DNA from: Octopus vulgaris
Taxonomy: Eukaryota
Assembly (NCBI GenBank): GCA_951406725.2
Contig: OX597823.1
Span: forward strand, 65,844,001 to 65,908,000
DNA: 64,000 bases
Direction of reading: 5' to 3'
Positions within the stretch are counted from its first letter, which is position 1, and each line of letters starts with the position of its first letter. The position numbers and the translations under genes are program-made. Shown piece by piece: positions 1 through 50,430 of the stretch. The notes beneath the pieces were generated by a model. The model was not told the origin of the DNA. It saw nothing but the letters and a program-made list of their open reading frames with translations, and searched no databases.

Positions 1-1250
1 GAAAGCAATTAAAGCAGGATCGCTTAGGTACAAAAAGGCCCAAGTATTAGACCGAAATAGAATAGGAGACCTAGTTAAGAAATTAGAAGAGGCACTTAGA
101 ACTGGCATAGCGTCCAACGTACTTCAACGCTAAATACGAAGGATGCGTTGCAGAGCTAGGATGCGTGCTTAGAGGAACGAAGGAGTTGGAGTCGTCAGAG
201 AGACCCAAGTGGCGGAGGCACAACGCGGCAACAAAGCCACCATTAGGTCCCTGACAGCTGAACATGGGTGCGAATTACTCGAGTCTGAAAGGATGTGTAA
301 GGCCTTTCAACAACAACTTACCCGACTGTTCGGGACAACTGGTGGCACAGAACGCAGAGTGGACTTTACTGCCTACCTGCATAGTATGCCACGACTCTCG
401 GTAAGAAAGGCGGAGTACTGGATGCGATGGCAGGCTATACGGGAAACAAGTTATCAGGGTTGGATGGTCTGCCCTACGAACTTTATTTTCATATGCCAGA
501 CTTGTTTGGACGTGTCTTGGCAGCTGTCTACTCTAACTGGCAGCAAAACCGGAGTATCCCCGACTCTGTAAAGCTAAGAGCGGTGGCACTGCGAAAGAAA
601 GATCAAAGAAAGGAGAACGTCATAGATAACTTCAGGCCCATCACTCTACCCAACGCAGATTTGAAGATTTTTGGCCAAGGTGTTAGCTGAGAGGTTGGTG
701 CTTGTCATCGAGAAACTGGTCGACATCTCGCAAACGTGCGCCGTGCCGGATAGGAGTATCCATGACAACCTCCATCTGATGCACTACATCATAGACAGGG
801 TTGTTAAGGAACCTGGCATGGGTAGTGCGCTGATAAATTTGGAACAGTCAAAACCATTCGATAGGGTAGACTATCACTTCTTGGAGGCTGTCCTTAGAGC
901 GGCTGGTTTAGGTCCCGCTTACACGGTTGGATCGCTGCCTTATACAACAGCATCCACTTTTCGTGGAAGGGAAGCGTTCCCATGGTTAGGCGATCCCTTT
1001 GCTGTCAACACCCGCTAAATGGACAGCTCGGCATACCGTAGTTGATGATGCGCAGACATGCGCTGAAACTGCGGCATCTCCGGCGTTTCATAGACGATGG
1101 TGAACAGGTGCGGTCGCTGTTTGTGCGGCGCGCTTTCCCGCAGCTCGTCTCTTTAGCCGAACTGCAGTCGTGGATCATGAAACAGAGATTGAAGCTAGGC
1201 GAATGACACCGCGAGTGCCGCCTTGTTTCAAGCATCTCTGCCGTCCAAGA
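1..1250 (+). mobile_element. Degraded L1-clade (Tx1-like) LINE ORF2 fragment, reverse transcriptase N-terminal half plus downstream region
   Basis: Frameshifted ORFs 427-690 and 671-1018 give GLDGLPYELY, NFRPITLPNADLKI, LAKVLAERL, QTCAVPDRSIHDN, INLEQSKPFDRV (RT domains 0-3); after ~955 the sequence jumps to post-RT text (KGSVPMVRRSLCCQHP), so the YADD region is deleted. Confidence 0.85.
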
Positions 1251-1562: not shown

Positions 1563-2483
1563 TATATATTTTTGCATATTATTTCTTCCGTGTTCAGCAA
1601 TAAGTATAATGGCAGCTTTTAAATACTCAATATATCGACCATTTAACACCGGCCATTTCATTTATTACTGAACATCGAAGACGTAAATGAAAAGATTATA
1701 TAGCTTTTCAACGTTGACTATGTAATCATGAAGGTAATTTGCCGAATCGTGTGCATGTTGTATTACGCATTAAACACAAACCTCTTTTCTGTATTTTTTA
1801 TATGTGTACTTCCCTCTATCGATCCACGTGCGTATTTCAGACTTGAAATCGTTTCGTCGATTTCTTAGTATCGAATATTTAAAGAACTTTCTAATATAAA
1901 AGATCGAATATATATTCTATATACTTTAACACTGCTAACCCCACAAAATTATGTTCACAAAAGTATTTGATTAATTCGAAGTTACAATCTAATTTACTTG
2001 ACAAATATAAGTTCTAAAATAACAGTTAACTATCCAACTATGTCAATGTGGTTCCCAGTGTTTCCCTGGTGTCCAGTTAGATGATCAAACGTTTCTGCAA
2101 ATAAACCTCATTCAAAATCAAGTATTGTAACATGAAAACAGAATAGAGAGAAAAAAAAGAACTTTATTGCTGGAGAAGAGTACTTCCTTATCTGGAACCT
2201 CGAAAGGCTTGCTTCTGCAACATTCAACAATATATCACTTTTTTCTTGAAATACGCCTCAGTTGTTTCAGCTTCTTCGTTAATGTGCGTTTTATAAAATT
2301 GCTACGATATAACGTAAGAAAAGAAGAAAGTTCGAAGAAACACAGTAGCTGTGATGAGCAGAAACAAATAAAGATTTGATGTTGATATGGGACGGCATTG
2401 TAAATATTTAGAAGATTTGCTGAAATGCAGTTATGATTTGTTCTCAAGCTACTTAGCTGACTTTAATGACAGCTATGTTGTGA

Positions 2484-2805
2484 AGGCGCATGGCTCAGTG
2501 GTTTGACCGTCAAGCTTACGATCGTGAGGTTGTGAGCTCGAATCCCGGACCGGGCAGCGTGTTGTGATCTTGAGCAAGAGACTTTATTTCACGTTGCTCC
2601 AGTTCACTCAGCTGTAGATATGAGTTGCGACGTCATTTCAAGCTGTATCGGCTGTTGCCTTTCCCTTGGATAACACTGGTGGCGTGGAGAAGGGAGGCCG
2701 GTATGCATGGGCGACTGCTGGTCTTCCATGAAAAACCTTGCCCGGGTTGGGAGGGTAACTTTCTAAGTGCAATCCCACGGTCAGTCATGACCGAAGGGTA
2801 TCTCA
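2484..2805 (+). mobile_element. tRNA-derived SINE, family B (CORE-like central domain)
   Basis: A-box-like tggctcagtggt, B-box-like gagctcgaatcc, then ttgagcaagagactttatttcacgttgctccagttcactcagctgtag resembling the CORE domain; second copy at 5734-6068. Confidence 0.8.
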
Positions 2806-2852
2806 ATTACAGCTACGTACACGTACACACACACACAAACGTTATATATATA

Positions 2853-2975
2853 TTAATAAATCTTGGGGTAGCAAAAAAACTTTTAGAAAAATTCTCCGCT
2901 ACCAGTGGTCTAACGGGAAGGAAAGAATAGTCAATAGACTATATATTATTCATAGAAAAATGCACACTGTATTTT
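2853..2975. mobile_element. Short terminal stub related to the left end of the 6081-6795 element
   Basis: ggggtagcaaaaaaacttttagaaaattctccgctaccagtggtctaacggga resembles gggtggcaaaaaaattttgtagaatcttattgccaccagcggcctagtggga (~6095-6146); bounded by (TA)n and (TATG)n. Confidence 0.6.
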
Positions 2976-2977
2976 TC

Positions 2978-3081
2978 TATGTATGTATGTATGTATGTAT
3001 GTATGTATGTATGTATGTATGTATGTATGTATGTATGTATGTATGTATGTATGTATGTATGTATCTATCTATCTATCTATA

Positions 3082-3118
<37 letters not shown>
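2978..3118. repeat. Compound microsatellite (TATG)n-(TATC)n-(TA)n
   Basis: Direct inspection. Confidence 0.95.
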
Positions 3119-3121
<3 letters not shown>

Positions 3122-5374
3122 TGTATGTCTGTATGGTATGTGCGCGCGCGCATCTACTGAATGACTGGGGTCATGATGGTGCACAGCCAGTAGATACGTA
3201 TATGCGTGCATGCAGATGTTTATATTCATATGAGTGTTTGTGTGTATCTGTTTGTATGTACATCTTATAATTAGATAGACATTCTTTTCTCACTGGTTGA
3301 TAGTCACACGCTCTCTTTCTTTCTCTTTCTCATTTTCTCTTTCTCTCTCTCTCACTCTCTATCACTCTCATCCCTCTATATTTTCTCTACGTTTTTCTTA
3401 CTATATCACAATTATTAACAGTTGAAGTCGAGTAAAATAAGTGTCATTTCAAGGTTCATTTCCCAGCACAAATATGTTCAATTATGCGATTCAAATGAAA
3501 GAATATCTACATATATGTGTGTGCGTGCATGTGCGCGTGTTCATATATATGTATGCATGTACGTAGGGAGATAATTGATTAACTGTGACACTATAAAGTA
3601 AATTTACGACTTCCTCTTCATCCTTAAGGATACTTCACGCTCAATGTACTGTTTGACGTACCTCCATTGATAACCTCCAGTTGAATAATGATAATCATGT
3701 AAAAACAACTGATAATGGTATGTTGTAGTTAATTGATTGTAAGATCATGGTTGGTGGAACACGATTTCAGTACCATTCTATTGCTAGCTAGAAAGGTTTG
3801 GCTCATGTAGCATTGTCAAAACCGAAGAATACACAATTATACTTCATATAATCCTCGACTAGATAAAGATACATATATAAATACATTTGTACAAATGGCC
3901 TCAATGCTGAGTAAATATATTTTACACACACATAAAGTAAAGTTGGATGAGTTTTTTTTCCAGGCAACAGGATTCAAAGATACATGAAGATAAACTTCTT
4001 AGAAAAATGCTTTTGTGTATTGATTAAATTAGATTTAATCAATATAAATTCTAATACAATAAATGATATTGTCAAGATAATCTCTTTTAAGTGCCCCCAT
4101 TGCAGCCACAAGAAACTGAATTGCTTGTGCACCAGAAAAACAACAAAGATAGTGAATAATATTTACTCAGTTCCCAATGAAGCTCTCTGTCCTCAATGAC
4201 CTAGTCTTTATAGGTTTAAATAGGCGTAATGACTGTAAGCCAGCACAAGGAGAGTAGTGTTCCAAAATTGCAAAGTGGTGCCGCATTTGAGATGAATTGG
4301 CGAAGTTGATTCATTCCAAATTAAGCTTTCAGTAATGTCTTTTTGTACTACTTAATGAGGAGATGCGGTACTTTTCCTCCAAAATAAAATAATTCCAGAA
4401 ACAGTCAAAGTTTATGTTAATGCAATCAATTTTCAATACATAAGTAGTAAAACACTTTTGCAAATTGAACTTAGGAAGTTTTAATAATTTTCTCATACAA
4501 TTTGGAAGATGTTTTCATAGAAACTTCGTTTCGTTTCTCAAATTAAGAAAAAAAAAACGTATTCCAAATCTTAATACAAAATATATTGAAAACAGTTTAT
4601 TTTTAAGTTTTAAGTTTGTAATCTTTATACATTTCCCTATTACATAAGATTTGTAAACAGACTCATTTTTGTTATTAATTCGGCTTGAATTTATTGAATA
4701 TTTTACTACCCCCTTATATGTTCTATACAATACGTTAATAGAAAAAGCAATTCTTTATTTTATTTGAAAACACTTTCTGTCTGTTTTTCGTAATTTTCTG
4801 ACTAATCTGATTTCTCTTTACATTTCACTTAAATTCTCCAAGTGATTAGTTTTAGCTAACCCATAGTCAGACAAACTACGAGCTTCACATGTCAAAGTTG
4901 ATTATGACGTCGTCTACATATGCCATGAGTTTATAAAATCTGATTCACTGGCAGAAGTGAACTATCTACCATCTTCATTTCTTTGCTGCCTTATTCCATG
5001 ATGCATTTTAATTCATGATGCTAAGAAAACAAATATTGTTTTGTTCGTGCTGCATTTATTATTACGTAGCCCAAAATTGTATCCGTGACCAAAACTATAG
5101 TCAAAGATCAATTGTATTTTCTTTAATATACCTGTAGGTATGTATGTGTGTATTATATATATAATAAAATATTAGGGAATAAATCCAAACTTACAGGGAA
5201 AAATCAGATTTAGGATTGAATCCAATTTTATTGTAAAATATTATATTATATTAAATTAGAGATAAAACCACTATTAGGCAAATCATACAATGAAAAACTT
5301 AAGCCAATACATAAGATTAATTCATTTATATTATTTAAATATATATCAAAAATATTAAAAAAGATAATTAATAT

Positions 5375-5443
5375 AACACTACGATCGTTTCATGGCTGTT
5401 CAATTCTTAAAATTTTCGAGTTACAGTCATTCTTCAGGTGGTT
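5375..5443 (-). ncRNA. Type I hammerhead ribozyme fold (element 1, left arm, mirror copy)
   Basis: Reverse complement of 5486-5554. Confidence 0.75.
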
Positions 5444-5485
5444 TACATATTTAACTTGATTAAACCTCGCCAAGTTAAATATGTA

Positions 5486-5554
5486 AACCACCTGAAGAAT
5501 GACTGTAACTCGAAAATTTTAAGAATTGAACAGCCATGAAACGATCGTAGTGTT
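5486..5554 (+). ncRNA. Type I hammerhead ribozyme fold (element 1, right arm)
   Basis: cac-CTGAAGA(5492-5498)-atgactgt...acagccat-GAAA(5538-5541)-cgatc-GTA(5547-5549)-gtg; helix III acgatcgt is a palindrome; helix I is short (cac/gtg, bulged extension). Confidence 0.75.
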
Positions 5555-5673
5555 ATATTAATTATCTTTTTTAATATTTTCGATATATATTTAAATAATA
5601 TAAATGAATTAATCTTATGTATTGGCTTAAGTTTTTCATTGTATGATTTGCCTAATAGTGGTTTTATCTCTAA

Positions 5674-5733
<60 letters not shown>

Positions 5734-5737
<4 letters not shown>

Positions 5738-6068
5738 TAAGCTCGACGCTCTAACCACTGAGCCATGCGAGGTTGTGAGCTCGAATCCCGGACCGGGCTG
5801 CGTGTTGTGTTCTTGAGCAAGACACTTTATTTCACGTTGCTCCAGTTCACTCAGCTGTAGAGATGAGTTGCGACGTCACTGGTGCCAAGCTGTATCGACC
5901 TTTGTCTTTCCCTTGGATAACACTGGTGGCGTGGAGAGGGGAGGCTGGTATGCATGGGCGACTGCTGGCCTTCCATAAAACAACCTTGCCCGGACTTGTG
6001 TCTAGGAGGGTAACATTCTAGGTGCAATCCCATGGTCACTCATGACCGAAGGGGGTCTTTACCCTTTT
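5734..6068 (+). mobile_element. SINE family B copy with inverted 5' head
   Basis: 5770-6068 matches 2527-2805; 5734-5769 is the reverse complement of the head cgcatggctcagtggttagagcgtcgagcttacgat. Confidence 0.85.
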
Positions 6069-6306
6069 ATATATATATATAATTAATCAATATAGGGTGG
6101 CAAAAAAATTTTGTAGAATCTTATTGCCACCAGCGGCCTAGTGGGAAAAAATTAAATAGTCATAAACCATTTTTAAGTTCAACATCACAATCAAGGAACG
6201 GCCATAATAGGCCATTCACCCACTAGAAATAACAGCCAAAAGCTTCAACCGCAAAATAACATCAATTCCGTAAACCAGGAGAAAATTAAAAAACATTTAC
6301 CCTGTA

Positions 6307-6413
6307 ATTTCTTATACGATGCACCGTTTCATCTACTGTTTAATGGTAAACTAACCTGATTAAATTAAATCAAGCCAATCTACCATAGGCCCTTAGATTC
6401 ATCAGTAAGAAAT
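6307..6413 (-). ncRNA. Type I hammerhead ribozyme fold (element 2, left arm, mirror copy)
   Basis: Reverse complement of 6566-6672 with one difference in the helix II loop. Confidence 0.88.
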
Positions 6414-6565
6414 AGCCAAGTCGGAACAGATAGTTTTCACGAGGCATTCTCATCCTTGCCTCGGCAATATCTGACCTAAAATTTTCAAATCATCGCACTC
6501 GCGCCAAATTTATCGGCAGCAAATTTATTTGCTGCCGATAAATTTGGCGCGAGTGCGACTTGGCT

Positions 6566-6672
6566 ATTTCTTACTGATGAATCTAAGGGCCTATGGTAGA
6601 TTGGCTTGATTTAATGTAATCAGGTTAGTTTACCATTAAACAGTAGATGAAACGGTGCATCGTATAAGAAAT
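6566..6672 (+). ncRNA. Type I hammerhead ribozyme fold with extended helix II (element 2, right arm)
   Basis: Helix I atttctta/taagaaat (8 bp); CTGATGA 6574-6580; helix II atcta/tagat plus 18 bp G-U-rich extension atggtagattggcttgat/atcaggttagtttaccat; GAAA 6649-6652; helix III acggtgcatcgt; GTA 6662-6664. Confidence 0.88.
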
Positions 6673-6818
6673 TACAGGGTAAATGTTTTTTAATTTACTC
6701 CTGGTTTACGGAATTGATGTTATTTTGCGGTTGAAGCTTTTAGCTGTTATTTCTAGTGGGTGAATGGCCTATTATGGCCGTTCCTTGATTGTGATATATA
6801 TATATATATATATATATA

Positions 6819-7485
6819 CTAAGCAATTAAGGGTTTAGCAACGAATTGCCTTACCGCACACCGAATTTAGAAATAGCAGTCAAAGAGATTATAGCTATTT
6901 CTTCTACTAAAAGGGAGATCACAGTAAAGACACAGCATTTGAAAGGCAAACACAAACAGGTAAGAGAGAATGAATTAACGGCAATCTATCATACAGTTTT
7001 AAGTCACCTACGGACGTACGTTTCGAGATCAAGTCTTAGGAAAGCATAAGAATTAGATAATTCTACCTTACCCAGACTTCTTCTCTCATCAGCGCAGGAT
7101 ACAAACAATCATGAATGATTGTATATTGAATTTTGAGATACTAGAAGGCACCAACTCAACTCAGTATCAGAGCGAGCTAGAAGCCACAGCTAGTATCACC
7201 AAATTCAAAGTGTGAATGAAAGCTTGTGTCACCAGTCCCTTCCCACCCGCGTGTAGCCAAGACAAAGTGCTGTGGTCATTTACTGGGATGAATATGGTTA
7301 TCAGTAACAATGAAGGGTGAAATTAATTAATTTGGAATAATTATCAATTACACCAAGTAGTCTTCGGAATGTAAAAGCCTCATTCGAGGAAAATTTTCCT
7401 CGAATGAGGCTTTTACATGCCGAAGACTACTTGGTGTAATTGATAATTATTCCAAATTAATTAATTTCACCCTTCATTGTTACTG

Positions 7486-7489
<4 letters not shown>
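6819..7489 (-). mobile_element. Non-coding element 3 (PLE pseudo-LTR-like) ending in a 192 bp palindrome, between (TA)n tracts
   Basis: Hammerhead at 7007-7098 (-); spacerless palindrome 7298-7489 centred on gaaaa|ttttc with one mismatch; (TA)n on both sides. Confidence 0.75.
7007..7098 (-). ncRNA. Type I hammerhead ribozyme fold with extended helix II (element 3)
   Basis: Minus strand reads cctgcg-CTGATGA-gaga...tctc-GAAA-cgtac-GTC-cgtagg; helix I 6 bp, helix III palindrome acgtacgt, canonical GUC triplet; helix II continues via aagtct/agactt and agaatta/taattct. Confidence 0.9.
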
Positions 7490-7536
<47 letters not shown>

Positions 7537-28990: not shown

Positions 28991-29509
28991 ATTACAAGGA
29001 AAAATACGAGCATGAAAAGTCATATTCTTAAGATTATAAACTTGGAAATGTACAGGACAAGTTATTACCCATGTAAAGGTATAGGACAATCTATTGCTTC
29101 TGGTAAAGTAAAGGATAAAAAACTTTTTACTTAAAATATTCCAGCTAAAATTAGAATTTTATTATTAAAAATTAATCCATTGTAGTTTACAAATCACACT
29201 ATACCTATTTAAGTAGATTTTGGCTAATTTACTACCTTAAATACTGAAAAAAGAGTGACTAATTAGACAAACTTACAAACTAGCTGAACAGTTTTATATA
29301 ATAAATTTAAAAGATGAGAACTGTTAAGAGTGATGAATTAGAAGAACTGGTATTCTTAGCTGTAATATTTTAAGTAAAATATTTCTTATTCTTTACTTTA
29401 GTAAAATAGCTAGTCCTCTACTTTTACAGGTGTAATAACTTGTCCTGTATTTTTCCAGGTTTATAATCTTAAGAATATGACTATTCATGCTCGCATTTTT
29501 CCATGTAAT
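28991..29509. repeat. Old fold-back / MITE-like inverted repeat (~155 bp arms)
   Basis: 28991-29148 vs 29356-29509, e.g. cgagcatgaaaagtcatattcttaagattataaac / gtttataatcttaagaatatgactattcatgctcg. Confidence 0.8.
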
Positions 29510-29683: not shown

Positions 29684-30973
29684 CGAGGGACGTTCAATAA
29701 GTAATGTCTCTGACCCACTTGCACTTGTTTGATCTAGCTGAAATTTTGCTTGTGCAATTATTTATGTCTCTATAGATTAAGTGGCAAATTACAGCTCTGA
29801 ATTAATTGTGGTTTCTGATTTACAGGTGTTTGAACCGAGTCAAGTGTGAGATGGAGCCTGTTGAGTGTCGAGCAGTGATCCGGTTTTTGTATTTGAAAGG
29901 ACGCACACCACGGGAGACTTTTGATGAAATGAAAGTAACTTATGGTGATGATGCCCCATCATATGACCTTGTAAAACGCTGGCATCGTGAATTCAAACAT
30001 GGTCGGAACTCTGTGGAAACAGCTCCCAGATCTGGTCGCCCCTTCTGCCATTGATGAGGCATCTGTCCGTCAAGTTGAGGCTGCCATTTTGGAAGATCGA
30101 CGCATAATTCTTCGCCAAATAGCCCATGAGGTCAAGATTAGTACCGGGTCTGTGGAAACTATCATTCATGACCATTTGCATATGCAAAAGGTGTCTGCCA
30201 GATGAATTCCCAGGTTGCTCACGCCTTTCCAGAAGCAAGAACGCGTCGAGTGCTCGAGGGTGAATTTGGAGATGTGCCAAGAAGATGAGTCAACATTTTT
30301 CAAAAGACTGATTACACAGGATGAAACCTGGGTCCATCACGATGATCCAGAGACCAAATCCCAGTCAATGCAGTGGAAGCACCGTGACTCACCCCCTCCA
30401 AAGAAGGCAAGGGTGCAGCCCTCCGCTGGCAAGGTCATGCTCACAGTCTTCTGGGACCAGGACGGAGTAGTGATGACATATTTCCTGGCAAAGGGTATCA
30501 CAATTGCAGGAGCCTATTATGCTTCACTTTTGAGGAAATTAAGAGAAGTTATCAAAATCAAGAGGCGGGGCAAGATCAGCAAAGGCATCCTCCTCCTGCA
30601 GGACAACGCTCCGGTCCACAACTCGCTTGTCGCCAGATCAGAAGCACAGGCGTATGGCTATGAACTCCTCCCTCATCCCCCTACTTTCCTGACCTTGCAC
30701 CCTCTGATTTTCACCTCTTCCCAGTCATGAAGTTGTTTTTGAAAGGAAAGCGTTTCCCAGATGATGCAGCCTTGATTTCTGAAGTCACGTTCAGGTTGGA
30801 GGACCAAGCTGGGGTCTTCTACAAAAACGGTCTGCAGAGCCGCATCAAACAATGGGAGAAATGCGTAACACTGGGTGGTTCCTATGTAGAAAAAGACTAA
30901 TAACTGGGCCAAGTTTCGTTGCTCTACTGCTATGGGAAGTGGGTCAGGGGCATTACTTATTGAACGCCCCTCG
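29684..30973 (+). mobile_element. Near full-length mariner transposon (1290 bp), TA target duplication
   Basis: 37 bp TIRs cgagggacgttcaataagtaatgtctctgacccactt / aagtgggtcaggggcattacttattgaacgcccctcg, flanked by TA on both sides. Confidence 0.95.
29851..30900 (+). pseudogene. Mariner D,D34D transposase pseudogene
   Basis: MEPVECRAVIRFL..., RSGRP, *IPRLL (WVPR motif hit by a stop at 30203-30205), ITQDETW, LLQDNAPVH, PDLAPSDFHLF; 34 residues between second and third D after correcting a frameshift near 30680; another frameshift near 30041. Confidence 0.93.
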
Positions 30974-40559: not shown

Positions 40560-41700
40560 TAGGCTTATAATTTGCGATAAAATATGATTTCTTTGCTGAT
40601 TATAGGTTACATTGTCCCTAAATTTATATATGGGAAAATTTCTAAAATTCTAAGGTTATGCTTTTCATTAGTGACGCAAATGATGATGAGTTCGCTTAAT
40701 GCTATTTTCCTGTATTCTCGTATTTTAATCTGGGATCTATATACGGTTATCCTCTGACGCGGACTGTTTATAGTTTGACCAATGTATTGAACTCGAAACC
40801 CTGAGCAAGTTAATACATACATCAAGTTTACCGAAGCACATGGTAAATCGTTTTTCACTGTAAAACTTTGACCCTGTTTGAAAGAGAACTCCGATCTCTC
40901 AATTAGGTTGACTCACATACAACAGTTAGGTCTTCCGCATTTTTTTTAATGTCGGTTTCGATGTTGTCGACGATTGTACTTCGGGTTGTGTTAGAATACT
41001 TTTGATTGACTTGGGATGACATTTGCTCTTTATGACGGTGTGCGTTAGAAGGATTTGATTAATTATGGTCCCTTTTTAGTAAAGGAATGTTCTGGAAGAT
41101 GGTGTCGAAGCTTCATTGTTTAGGGGGTTGTGTGTAGATATGCGTGGTGGTGGTTTTAATTGAAATTCATTCATTAGTTTGGGATGTCTGAGTTCGTGGA
41201 TGTCGAGTTAGTTACATATCAATTAGGGATAGTAGGTGTTCCTTCTGACGTGTATATCCTTCACCTCATGTAGTCGTTTGTCCCTGGTGCTTGTATCAGA
41301 TGCTATAGTGCTAATATTTTTGGCTAGGTAGAATGTGACATTCATTCTAGCGAGTCTGGAGTGGCAAGAGTTGAACGGTAGACATTGCTTGGAGTCCATG
41401 GGTTTATAGTATGTGTCTCTAGTTCTATTTTGCTGTTGGATGTCTTAAGGATGTCGAGGGATGGAAGTTGTTTGCTATATTCCAATGTAAATTGAATGTT
41501 TATGTCAAGTCCATTTAGAAATGCTTGAAATTCTTGCAGTCTCTCTTTACTTTAATAACAAAGAATAAAGCAGTCGTCTAGATATCGCTTCCAGTTATTT
41601 TCCACGTAAAGGGAGAACAAGTCTCCGATTCCATCTAGTAATTTACGATAAAGAGAGATTTCTAGGTGCCACATGACTTGGTTAGGAAAGGAAGAGGGCA
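40560..41700 (-). mobile_element. Degraded Penelope-like retroelement, RT (YLDD) plus thumb, Cys linker and C-terminal GIY-YIG
   Basis: NWKRYLDDCFIL (ORF 41552-41758); YKPMDSKQCLPFNSCH; CGRPNC; CASVNLMYVLTCSGFRVQYIGQT...RQRITVYRSQI (ORF 40607-40858). Confidence 0.85.
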
Positions 41701-42003
41701 ATCTTTTCCCCAGTTTAATTATTTTTTTCTTCTGAATTAATATGCAGCTTTGTTTCACTCTTAGTTGAAAAAGTTAAAATGGCAGAAACCGGCACTAACC
41801 ATTACAAAATGTATTTCATAACGAAATTAATTTAGCATTTTGTGCCTTTTCATATTTTCCTTATACATATCAACTCGTGTGTCATTTTTCAACATTTCAC
41901 ACACACACACACACACACATACACAGACACACACACAGACACACACACACACATATACATATATATATATGATTTCATCCACATGCACACAGAAACGTTG
42001 TCA

Positions 42004-49547: not shown

Positions 49548-49619
49548 TCTCCTCTCATAACTGTTACAAATTGTCTTTTCTAATGTCTGGTACCTGAAAT
49601 AGCTAAACATTATTTTCCG

Positions 49620-50430
49620 TTTAGCTCAAGCTACCTGAAACACATCAAGAGGAATATCCCCTTTAATTTAGCAAAAAGGATTTGCACAATAATGTGTAAT
49701 GCAAATACTCGGGACCTCCCTCTTCAAGACCTCATAGCAACAGTAACTGGGAGACAATATCCACCATCACTTATAGACGGTTGCATTAAGCGTGCCAAGA
49801 AATTAAGCATTAAATCCCTAAGAGAAACAAAGTGTAACTCCACACCACATCTCAAAACACTACCATATATATCAACACACAGGCCTAGAAACAATGAACC
49901 ATACAACACTATTGTACAAAATTTACCTATGCACACCAGAAATCTAAAAATGAAGAACATACTGAAAACATAAATTTATCAAATGCAAAAAGCAGCACAA
50001 ATCGCTGTTACACAACAACCACGAAACCAATGTTTAAAAATGTGGAGGTCTAAACTTTGGAACATTCCCCAGCCTAAAAGAAGGCTCGGAATACCTATTT
50101 AAAAGAGATAGGTTTGCAATTAAATACAACTTCGCTTGTGCCTCCGAGAATCTAATTTATGTTACACATTGTTCAGTTTCTGAACGTAACTATATAGGAC
50201 AGATAAGTATAGCTTTAGACGGAGAACCGCCCTACATAAGGGACAAATCCGTTCACAACAGTAAAGACAGATTCCTTCAAGTGAGCACGTAGGTGTGCAT
50301 GCAATATCCAAACAAACATCAGTTTTCCACATATATCAGTGCAAAGGAAAAATATATATGTACAAGAACGCATAAAGAGAATTCATTTATCGAAAAATAC
50401 AGAACGCACCTAAATATGAACGCATAAACG
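49620..50430 (+). mobile_element. Degraded 5'-truncated Penelope-like retroelement (thumb, linker, GIY-YIG)
   Basis: KHIKRNIPFNLAKRICTI...RQYPPSLID...LPYISTHRPRN (ORF 49692-49973 and upstream), then CASENLIYVTHCSVSERNYIGQ; homologous to 40560-41400. Confidence 0.85.

What the first reader, a model, noticed from the sequence alone, without database searches (positions are those of the whole stretch)
5160..7533. Stack of three unrelated fold-back, hammerhead-ribozyme-bearing non-coding elements in one (TA)n tract
Seen: three sequence-unrelated inserts (5163-5682, 6081-6795, 6819-7489) are separated by (TA)n and one SINE, share a polarity, lack ORFs, and each has a long near-perfect inverted repeat whose right arm ends at (TA)n. 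Five hammerhead folds lie within 1.8 kb. Established: Penelope-like elements carry minimal type I hammerheads in pseudo-LTRs, can show inverted pLTRs and often target simple repeats; retrozymes are their non-autonomous relatives. Inference: these are a class of non-autonomous, TA-targeted fold-back ribozyme retroelements mobilised by PLE RT/GIY-YIG proteins such as those decayed at 40560-41700 and 49620-50430. The low arm divergence suggests recent formation or arm homogenisation.
Basis: partly seen in the sequence, partly recalled or inferred. Interest (0 to 1): 0.88.

Follow-up and report, generated by a model that had tools for sequence, protein, structure and literature searches.

The report
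Ribozyme retroelements landing as mirror pairs
Three abundant protein-free repeats, each with a predicted self-cleaving hammerhead RNA, sit side by side in TA repeats as mirror-image pairs, likely because a Penelope-type retrotransposon enzyme copied each RNA twice from two fixed start points, a known kind of element whose copies here make that copying model testable.

Summary
The anatomy is real: three inverted repeats (212, 240, 102 nt; 97-100%) and five type I hammerhead folds (three distinct, two mirrored). It is not a new fold-back class. Each insert belongs to a dispersed family with over 1,000 first-look candidates in this 2.8-Gb genome. Families 2 and 3 are 491- and 586-nt tandem monomers (non-LTR retrozymes); family 1 is a ~320-nt solo unit. 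The hairpin apex differs between copies and about half the copies have one arm only, so the mirror arises at insertion. Outer ends are fixed: 104 of 115 sampled fold-backs have one tailed and one tail-less end (1 two tailed, 0 two tail-less, 10 off-phase). Young autonomous Penelope-like elements (PLEs) here show the same pattern (29 of 30 pairs). This is the published PLE 'inverted copy plus tail' signature. Best model (inferred): both DNA strands are primed from two RNA start sites and the two cDNAs are end-joined; in 12 cases neither arm contains the other. No sequence link to an autonomous PLE was found; cleavage and expression are untested. The scan noted a similar case in another genome (e1-7858806).

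The parts
5163..5458 (-). Family 1, tailed (L) arm; tail about 5163-5246; RNA sense on - strand, 3' end at the left (TA)n
   Evidence: reference 1-296
5456..5691 (+). Family 1, tail-less (S) arm (right end 5682-5691, ambiguous in TA-rich sequence); reaches 15 nt further 5' than the L arm; 3-nt overlap at a junction that recurs in other copies
5380..5437 (-). Type I hammerhead core, family 1 (CUGAAGA, GAAA, palindromic 8-nt helix III, GUA; helix I 3 bp); predicted cut between 5380 and 5379
5492..5549 (+). Mirror copy of the family 1 hammerhead
5678..5735 (.). (TA)n target tract
5736..6067 (+). Dispersed SINE-like repeat (tRNA-like head judged by eye; ARAGORN finds none); first 34 nt inverted relative to the copy at 2487-2798
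6081..6539 (-). Family 2 (491-nt tandem monomer), L arm; tail 6081-6183
6512..6795 (+). Family 2, S arm: reference 462-414 at the apex hairpin, a ~69-nt deletion, then 344-104
6315..6405 (-). Type I hammerhead, family 2 (helix I 8 bp, long helix II, GUA)
6574..6664 (+). Mirror copy of the family 2 hammerhead
6794..6818 (.). (TA)n target tract
6816..7396 (-). Family 3 (586-nt tandem monomer), S arm, about one whole monomer
7013..7092 (-). Type I hammerhead, family 3 (helix I 6 bp, palindromic helix III, GUC)
7391..7488 (+). Family 3, L arm, made only of the ~100-nt tail
7486..7533 (.). (TA)n target tract
40593..41710 (-). Decayed PLE RT-thumb-GIY-YIG remnant (context; not the mobiliser)
49593..50415 (+). 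Decayed PLE thumb-GIY-YIG remnant (context)

Best explanation
The locus holds three independent insertions of non-coding repeat families with predicted type I hammerheads (non-LTR retrozyme / non-autonomous Penelope-like type), each likely written into (TA)n by a Penelope-like RT-endonuclease that would nick both strands and prime two cDNAs on one template, one from a downstream start (tailed end) and one from a start 75-105 nt upstream (tail-less end). Shown: dispersed families, two fixed 3' end phases in (TA)n, head-to-head arms, variable apex, one-tailed-one-tail-less pairing, near-identical arms and monomers within an insertion, and the same anatomy in young autonomous PLEs of this genome. 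Inferred: the two cDNAs stop at variable points and are joined by microhomology or with short inserts; if only one is completed a solo arm results; each insertion leaves (TA)n on both sides, which would keep the site a target and so build stacks. Hammerhead cleavage, circular RNA and the identity of the helper PLE are untested.
For: First-look candidates 1282, 1468, 1896 (not copy numbers). Tandem periods 491 and 586. Among 205 deduplicated insertions (97/53/55), 115 are simple fold-backs: 104 L+S, 1 L+L, 0 S+S, 10 with one off-phase end (104 of 105 classifiable, p 3e-30 against 50%). (TA)n lies within 16 nt of 207 of 230 fold-back ends and 78 of 88 solo 3' ends. Autonomous PLE-A and PLE-B: 30 inverted pairs scored, 29 L+S with a ~40-nt tail (one search prints 30; L154 is L+L). 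In 12 of 104 L+S cases the S arm lacks the tail and the L arm stops more than 20 nt short of the S arm (counted by hand's list), 3 of them with the L arm ending inside the tail, so neither arm can be a copy of the other. The recurrent family 1 junction occurs with either arm as the longer (5 and 1 of 6 resolved). Arm-arm divergence 1.2/0.4/0.3% against 3.6/3.3/2.1% between loci. Junction overlap of 2 nt or more in 34 of 75 resolved junctions, null 15-26%. Frangieh 2024 (PMC11167929): a PLE protein cuts and extends both strands, starts RT at two internal sites bounding the tail, predicted dimer.
Against: No DNA or protein similarity between the three families and PLE-A, PLE-B or the other sampled RT/GIY-YIG loci beyond nested insertions. 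PLE-A and PLE-B have no CUGANGA core in their end repeats (one unit each scanned). Tails are 75-105 nt, not the published 30-40 nt. In 79 of 104 L+S cases the L arm reaches as far as or further than the S arm (within 20 nt), which snap-back copying also explains. 22 of 75 junctions show inserts and 19 are blunt or 1 nt. Within-family covariation is weak: 1 compensatory, 8 one-sided, 12 broken alternative pair types; core variants at 1 of 33 positions against 148 of 1099 elsewhere. Frangieh saw no difference in start site between strands. Samples are top-scoring hits, not random draws; at least one segmental duplicate (L101/L104) is probably counted twice.
Confidence: 0.75

Rival explanations
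1. Same PLE-mobilised families, but the mirror arm is made by snap-back: one cDNA folds on itself, is copied as DNA, and the endonuclease trims the second arm at the internal site, leaving the tail on one end (self-priming, as Arkhipova 2013 proposed on an antisense template; EN-mediated resolution, as Craig 2021 suggested).
For: Near-symmetric apices in 31 of 52 family 1 pairs; apices at natural hairpins (family 2 position 462 in several copies); window element 3, whose L arm lies wholly inside its S arm; passages.
Against: 12 of 104 pairs in which neither arm contains the other, and the family 1 junction read with either arm longer. It may still account for part of the copies.
Confidence: 0.17
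2. Fold-back or MITE-like DNA transposons whose inverted repeats are part of the element, with arms kept alike by conversion.
For: Long near-perfect inverted repeats and TA flanks; arms share non-majority variants.
Against: Variable apex, unequal ends, solo arms and tandem monomers; tandem monomers are as alike as arms (0.55-0.6% against 0.3-0.4%), which common birth explains.
Confidence: 0.03
3. Mobilised by a LINE with ordinary twin priming, as for the neighbouring SINE with its inverted head.
For: 5' inversions are a LINE feature (recalled); LINE-like RT frames occur in fetched flanks; no sequence link to a PLE was found.
Against: LINE twin priming gives non-overlapping pieces and one fixed end (recalled); here both arms repeat the same sequence and both outer ends are fixed, as in PLE-A and PLE-B.
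Confidence: 0.04
4. Assembly or library chimeras.
For: Palindromic chimeras occur in long-read libraries (recalled); no public contig bridged the element 2 apex (inconclusive).
Against: The one-tailed-one-tail-less rule across five families on many contigs, arm differences and a ~69-nt deletion in one arm cannot come from read fold-back.
Confidence: 0.01

Closest known systems
Metazoan non-LTR retrozymes (Cervera and de la Pena 2020, PMC7229834; Li, Clavereau, Pollet 2026, bioRxiv 10.64898/2026.07.22.740005)
   Same: Non-coding, low-GC tandem monomers with one type I hammerhead each; proposed PLE dependence; monomers, dimers and multimers dispersed in the genome.
   Different: Monomers of 491 and 586 nt (150-450 in the 2020 paper, 51-972 in the 2026 preprint); family 1 is almost never tandem; PLE-type inverted, one-tailed insertion ends are shown here and were not in the parts I read (no occurrence of 'inverted' in the 2020 main text); no homology to a sampled PLE end, unlike 24 of 57 Xenopus families; RNA not tested.
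EN+ Penelope-like elements with inverted pLTR and tail (Arkhipova 2013, PMC3846280; Craig 2021, PMC8557442; Frangieh 2024, PMC11167929)
   Same: Head-to-head inverted 5'-truncated copy, tail on one end, partial tandems, AT-rich or (TA)n targets, two RT start sites.
   Different: No ORF; tail 75-105 nt instead of 30-40 nt; the sampled autonomous families share the anatomy but not the sequence or the hammerhead core.
Non-autonomous Chlamys elements such as MRC1 (Craig 2021)
   Same: Non-autonomous PLE passengers with multicopy head-to-tail insertions.
   Different: Those generally resemble their autonomous partner at the 3' end and their clade lacks canonical hammerheads; here hammerheads are present and no 3' similarity was found.

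Membership tests
non-LTR retrozyme | Type I hammerhead in each unit | tested here: met
   Descriptor hits in all three families; 355 hits in 1.68 Mb of fetched loci (overlapping loci included), 0 in 0.87 Mb shuffled. Rfam models do not score them; family 1 helix I is weak.
non-LTR retrozyme | Short tandem repeats, dimers to multimers | tested here: met
   Families 2 and 3: 491- and 586-nt periods, up to about 5 units. Family 1 does not meet it: one dimer (L289) seen among the listed insertions.
non-LTR retrozyme | Non-coding; no LTR, PBS or PPT | tested here: inconclusive
   No credible ORF and no match to PLE proteins; PBS and PPT were not searched.
non-LTR retrozyme | Self-cleavage of the RNA | not testable with these tools
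   Indirect hint only: 5' ends fall within 10 nt inside the predicted cut in 5 of 26 (family 1, p 0.008), 5 of 91 (family 2, p 0.04), 2 of 75 (family 3, p 0.37); local AT-rich microhomology is an alternative and the window was chosen after seeing the data.
non-LTR retrozyme | Expressed as linear and circular monomer RNA | not testable with these tools
   No raw RNA reads were available; within-insertion variants are nearly all single-monomer, which does not separate a circular from a homogeneous linear template.
PLE-type insertion (non-autonomous) | Head-to-head inverted 5'-truncated copy with variable junction | tested here: met
   115 of 205 sampled insertions; 31 of 61 in short-query samples.
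PLE-type insertion (non-autonomous) | Tail on one of the two 3' ends | tested here: met
   104 of 105 classifiable pairs; tail longer than published.
PLE-type insertion (non-autonomous) | Simple-repeat or AT-rich target | tested here: met
   207 of 230 fold-back ends and 78 of 88 solo 3' ends at (TA)n.
PLE-type insertion (non-autonomous) | Sequence shared with the pLTR or 3' end of an autonomous PLE | tested here: not met
   No match in 130 RT/GIY-YIG loci other than nested insertions; the sample is dominated by a few Neptune/Nematis-like families, so other partners are not excluded.
autonomous PLE | RT plus GIY-YIG ORF | tested here: not met
   Absent from the three inserts; present in PLE-A and PLE-B elsewhere (Pfam scores GIY-YIG in PLE-B only).
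minimal PLE hammerhead (Cervera 2014) | Reduced or absent helix III, 4-5-bp helix I, dimer-dependent | tested here: inconclusive
   Helix III is 3-5 bp with palindromic or near-palindromic sequence, helix I 3-8 bp, helix II region long; dimer dependence untested.
MITE / fold-back DNA transposon | Fixed terminal inverted repeats and fixed internal structure | tested here: not met
   Apex variable, ends unequal, solo arms common.

The most novel reading that the evidence does not exclude
Every inverted Penelope-type insertion is one event in which a protein dimer primes both target strands from two different start sites on one RNA; these retrozymes are passengers that supply both sites by structure, without sequence homology, to hammerhead-less Neptune-like helpers. 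That would be direct integration-signature evidence that retrozymes move by the PLE machinery.
Probability: 0.5. Interest if true: 0.68.

Novelty: new member of a known kind. Interest (0 to 1): 0.48.

Why it matters
How Penelope-like elements make their inverted-plus-tail insertions is described as undefined (Craig 2021), and the link between retrozymes and PLEs rests on co-occurrence and pLTR homology (Li 2026). Here three short passenger families and two autonomous families in one genome obey one rule (133 of 135 classifiable pairs have one tailed and one tail-less end), some pairs exclude snap-back, and the start sites are mapped to within about 10 nt. This gives 300-600-nt RNA substrates for a direct test. 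The stack itself is ordinary reuse of (TA)n targets.

Tried and rejected
Rfam scan at E<=1: 117 matches, none a hammerhead. Search for an autonomous partner sharing sequence: none among loci from RT, GIY-YIG and PF01541 searches (compared in 27, 31, 60). The 5' extension of family 1 subfamily 1b gave no PLE-like frame. A 66-nt AT-rich query returned nothing and shows nothing. Expression: no RNA holder listed; three runs guessed to be RNA and one unlabelled run hold family 3 contigs including the monomer junction, which tandem DNA also explains; not used as evidence. Independent support for the element 2 apex: no listed contig piece bridged it, inconclusive. Circular against linear template test: inconclusive (the first count was confounded by alignment noise at L229). 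Cleavage footprint: the family 1 pile-up's sample was discounted because that query ended at the same position; retested. Within-family covariation: weak. Target-site duplications cannot be read inside (TA)n. ARAGORN found no tRNA in the SINE. Earlier notes on this genome or on similar sequence: none. Rejected: new fold-back class, shared polarity, local decayed PLEs as helper, MITE, assembly chimera.
Full report
OBSERVATION. A type I hammerhead descriptor (CUGANGA, helix II, GAAA, helix III, NUH, helix I) run on both strands finds five folds in 5380-7092; three pass the strict form and 0 of 1000 shuffles give one. Two of the five are mirror copies. Elements 2 and 3 fold with helices I and II formed (z -4.3, -3.5); element 1 does not (z 0.78). 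Rfam lists no hammerhead among 117 matches, probably because 39-68 nt separate the core strands (inference).

FAMILIES. The window is G000:C10:65844001-65908000 in a 2.8-Gb genome. Whole-insert searches gave 1282, 1468 and 1896 first-look candidates, of which 40 each were scored. Family 2 is a 491-nt and family 3 a 586-nt head-to-tail monomer. Family 1 is a ~300-340-nt unit whose copies mostly end 20-60 nt upstream of the hammerhead; a subfamily continues into further AT-rich sequence. To reduce the bias of whole-insert queries I added short one-arm queries (one search returned nothing) and fetched the remaining top loci.

ANATOMY. Pooling all fetched loci, dropping insertions cut by a locus edge or under 100 nt, and removing duplicates by flanks gave 97, 53 and 55 insertions. 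Arms are joined 5' to 5' with RNA-sense 3' ends outward. Each family has two fixed 3' phases, a long end L and a short end S 75-105 nt upstream; the stretch between is a tail that folds into a hairpin in all three. Of 115 simple fold-backs, 104 are L+S, 1 L+L, 0 S+S and 10 have one off-phase end; 88 insertions are solo arms and 2 are complex. (TA)n flanks 207 of 230 fold-back ends and 78 of 88 solo 3' ends. The apex varies over the whole monomer. In the short-query samples 15 of 25, 7 of 15 (4 loci unassigned) and 9 of 21 insertions are fold-backs. In the window, elements 1 and 2 are L-left and element 3 is L-right. Mixed stacks of these families occur in 4 other fetched loci.

AUTONOMOUS ELEMENTS. 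An RT fragment beside one family 3 copy led to a young family PLE-A (811-aa frame), and the window's GIY-YIG remnant to PLE-B (784 aa); they are 56% identical. Both have a CX4CxxC linker before the GIY-YIG, which Craig 2021 gives for Neptune and Nematis (sequences; passage; no tree built). I fetched 20 ten-kb loci of each, many chosen because two hits faced apart. Thirty inverted pairs could be scored: 29 have one ~40-nt tailed end and one tail-less end in (TA)n; L154 has two tails. Neither family has a CUGANGA core in its end repeat, and no similarity to families 1-3 was found in these or in 90 further RT and GIY-YIG loci, apart from nested insertions. The window's remnants are 34-59% identical to PLE-A/B and broken.

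MECHANISM. Arms of one insertion differ by 1.2, 0.4 and 0.3%, different loci by 3.6, 3.3 and 2.1%, and tandem monomers within an insertion by about 0.6% (on the first 46, 21 and 24 loci). Common birth from one template explains this without later homogenisation (inference). Snap-back copying needs one arm to lie inside the other. In 25 of 104 L+S pairs the S arm reaches over 20 nt further; in 12 of these it also lacks any tail copy, so neither arm contains the other (hand count). In 43 the L arm reaches further and 36 are within 20 nt; these fit either model. The recurrent family 1 junction, the one in the window, appears with the L arm shorter in 5 and longer in 1 of 6 resolved cases. Of 75 resolved junctions 34 overlap by 2 nt or more (null 15-26%), 19 by 0-1 nt and 22 carry inserts, which suggests end-joining. 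Frangieh 2024 showed that a PLE protein cuts and extends both strands of AT-rich DNA, starts at two internal RNA sites that bound the tail, does not need hammerhead cleavage in vitro, and is a predicted dimer. The simplest reading is paired priming, one start site per strand, then joining. This step is inferred.

RIBOZYME. More than 20 other sequence-unrelated motifs in the fetched loci keep the same core with their own complementary helices, against 0 hits in 0.87 Mb of shuffled sequence, so the motif is not chance. Within the three young families covariation is weak. 5' ends lie within 10 nt inside the predicted cut in 5 of 26, 5 of 91 and 2 of 75 cases (p 0.008, 0.04, 0.37), and family 2 has no ends in the next 35 nt (p 0.001). 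This is a hint only: the window was chosen after seeing the data and AT-rich microhomology lies there. Li 2026 found cleavage in 1 of 9 Xenopus elements, so activity cannot be assumed.

LITERATURE SEEN. Li 2026 preprint, parts 1-3 of 5. Frangieh 2024, parts 1-2 of 4 and passages. Passages only: Craig 2021, Arkhipova 2013, Cervera 2020, Cervera 2014. No supplements. The inverted copy, the tail at one end, (TA)n targeting and non-autonomous PLEs are all in print. Six searches showed no paper that counts the end pairing, tests arm nesting, or reports PLE-type inverted ends for retrozymes; the library lacks most subscription journals.

VERDICT. Real and well formed, but new members of a known kind. 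The value lies in the end-pairing rule and the short testable substrates. Interest 0.48.

Noticed in passing
L160:4432-5916 and 2171-4603; L204:5118-6533 and 2833-5184: PLE-A and PLE-B both have an upstream 470-495-codon frame whose first Met follows the tail and which overlaps the RT-EN frame (about 170 and 65 nt); the second frame has no early Met. Possibly a frameshift or two-ORF PLE. No significant Pfam match.
   Followed up: partly
L160, L205: Young PLE-A and PLE-B lack a CUGANGA core in their end repeats although the genome is rich in hammerhead passengers.
   Followed up: partly
window 28816-28760(-) and about 24001-23930(-): Two more type I hammerhead motifs of other families in the window; an 85% inverted repeat lies near the first, at about 29000-29500.
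   Followed up: partly
e.g. L389:208-455, L226, L050, L206, L216, L219: More than 20 further unrelated hammerhead motifs in fetched flanks; L389 has one as an inverted pair.
   Followed up: no
window 5736-5769: The SINE-like copy has its first 34 nt inverted relative to copies at 2487-2798, L045 and L161.
   Followed up: partly
L109, L110, L112, L271, L272, L287: Family 1 subfamily that diverges at reference position 292 into a shared AT-rich extension of over 300 nt in L110/L112, with longer fold-back arms.
   Followed up: partly
L387, L392, L410: A third young PLE family with a 781-aa frame, 58% and 66% identical to PLE-A and PLE-B; its ends were not scored.
   Followed up: no
window 30206-30730(+) and 173-1018(+): A mariner-like transposase fragment and a broken LINE-like RT, judged by eye from the ORF list (names recalled).
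   Followed up: no
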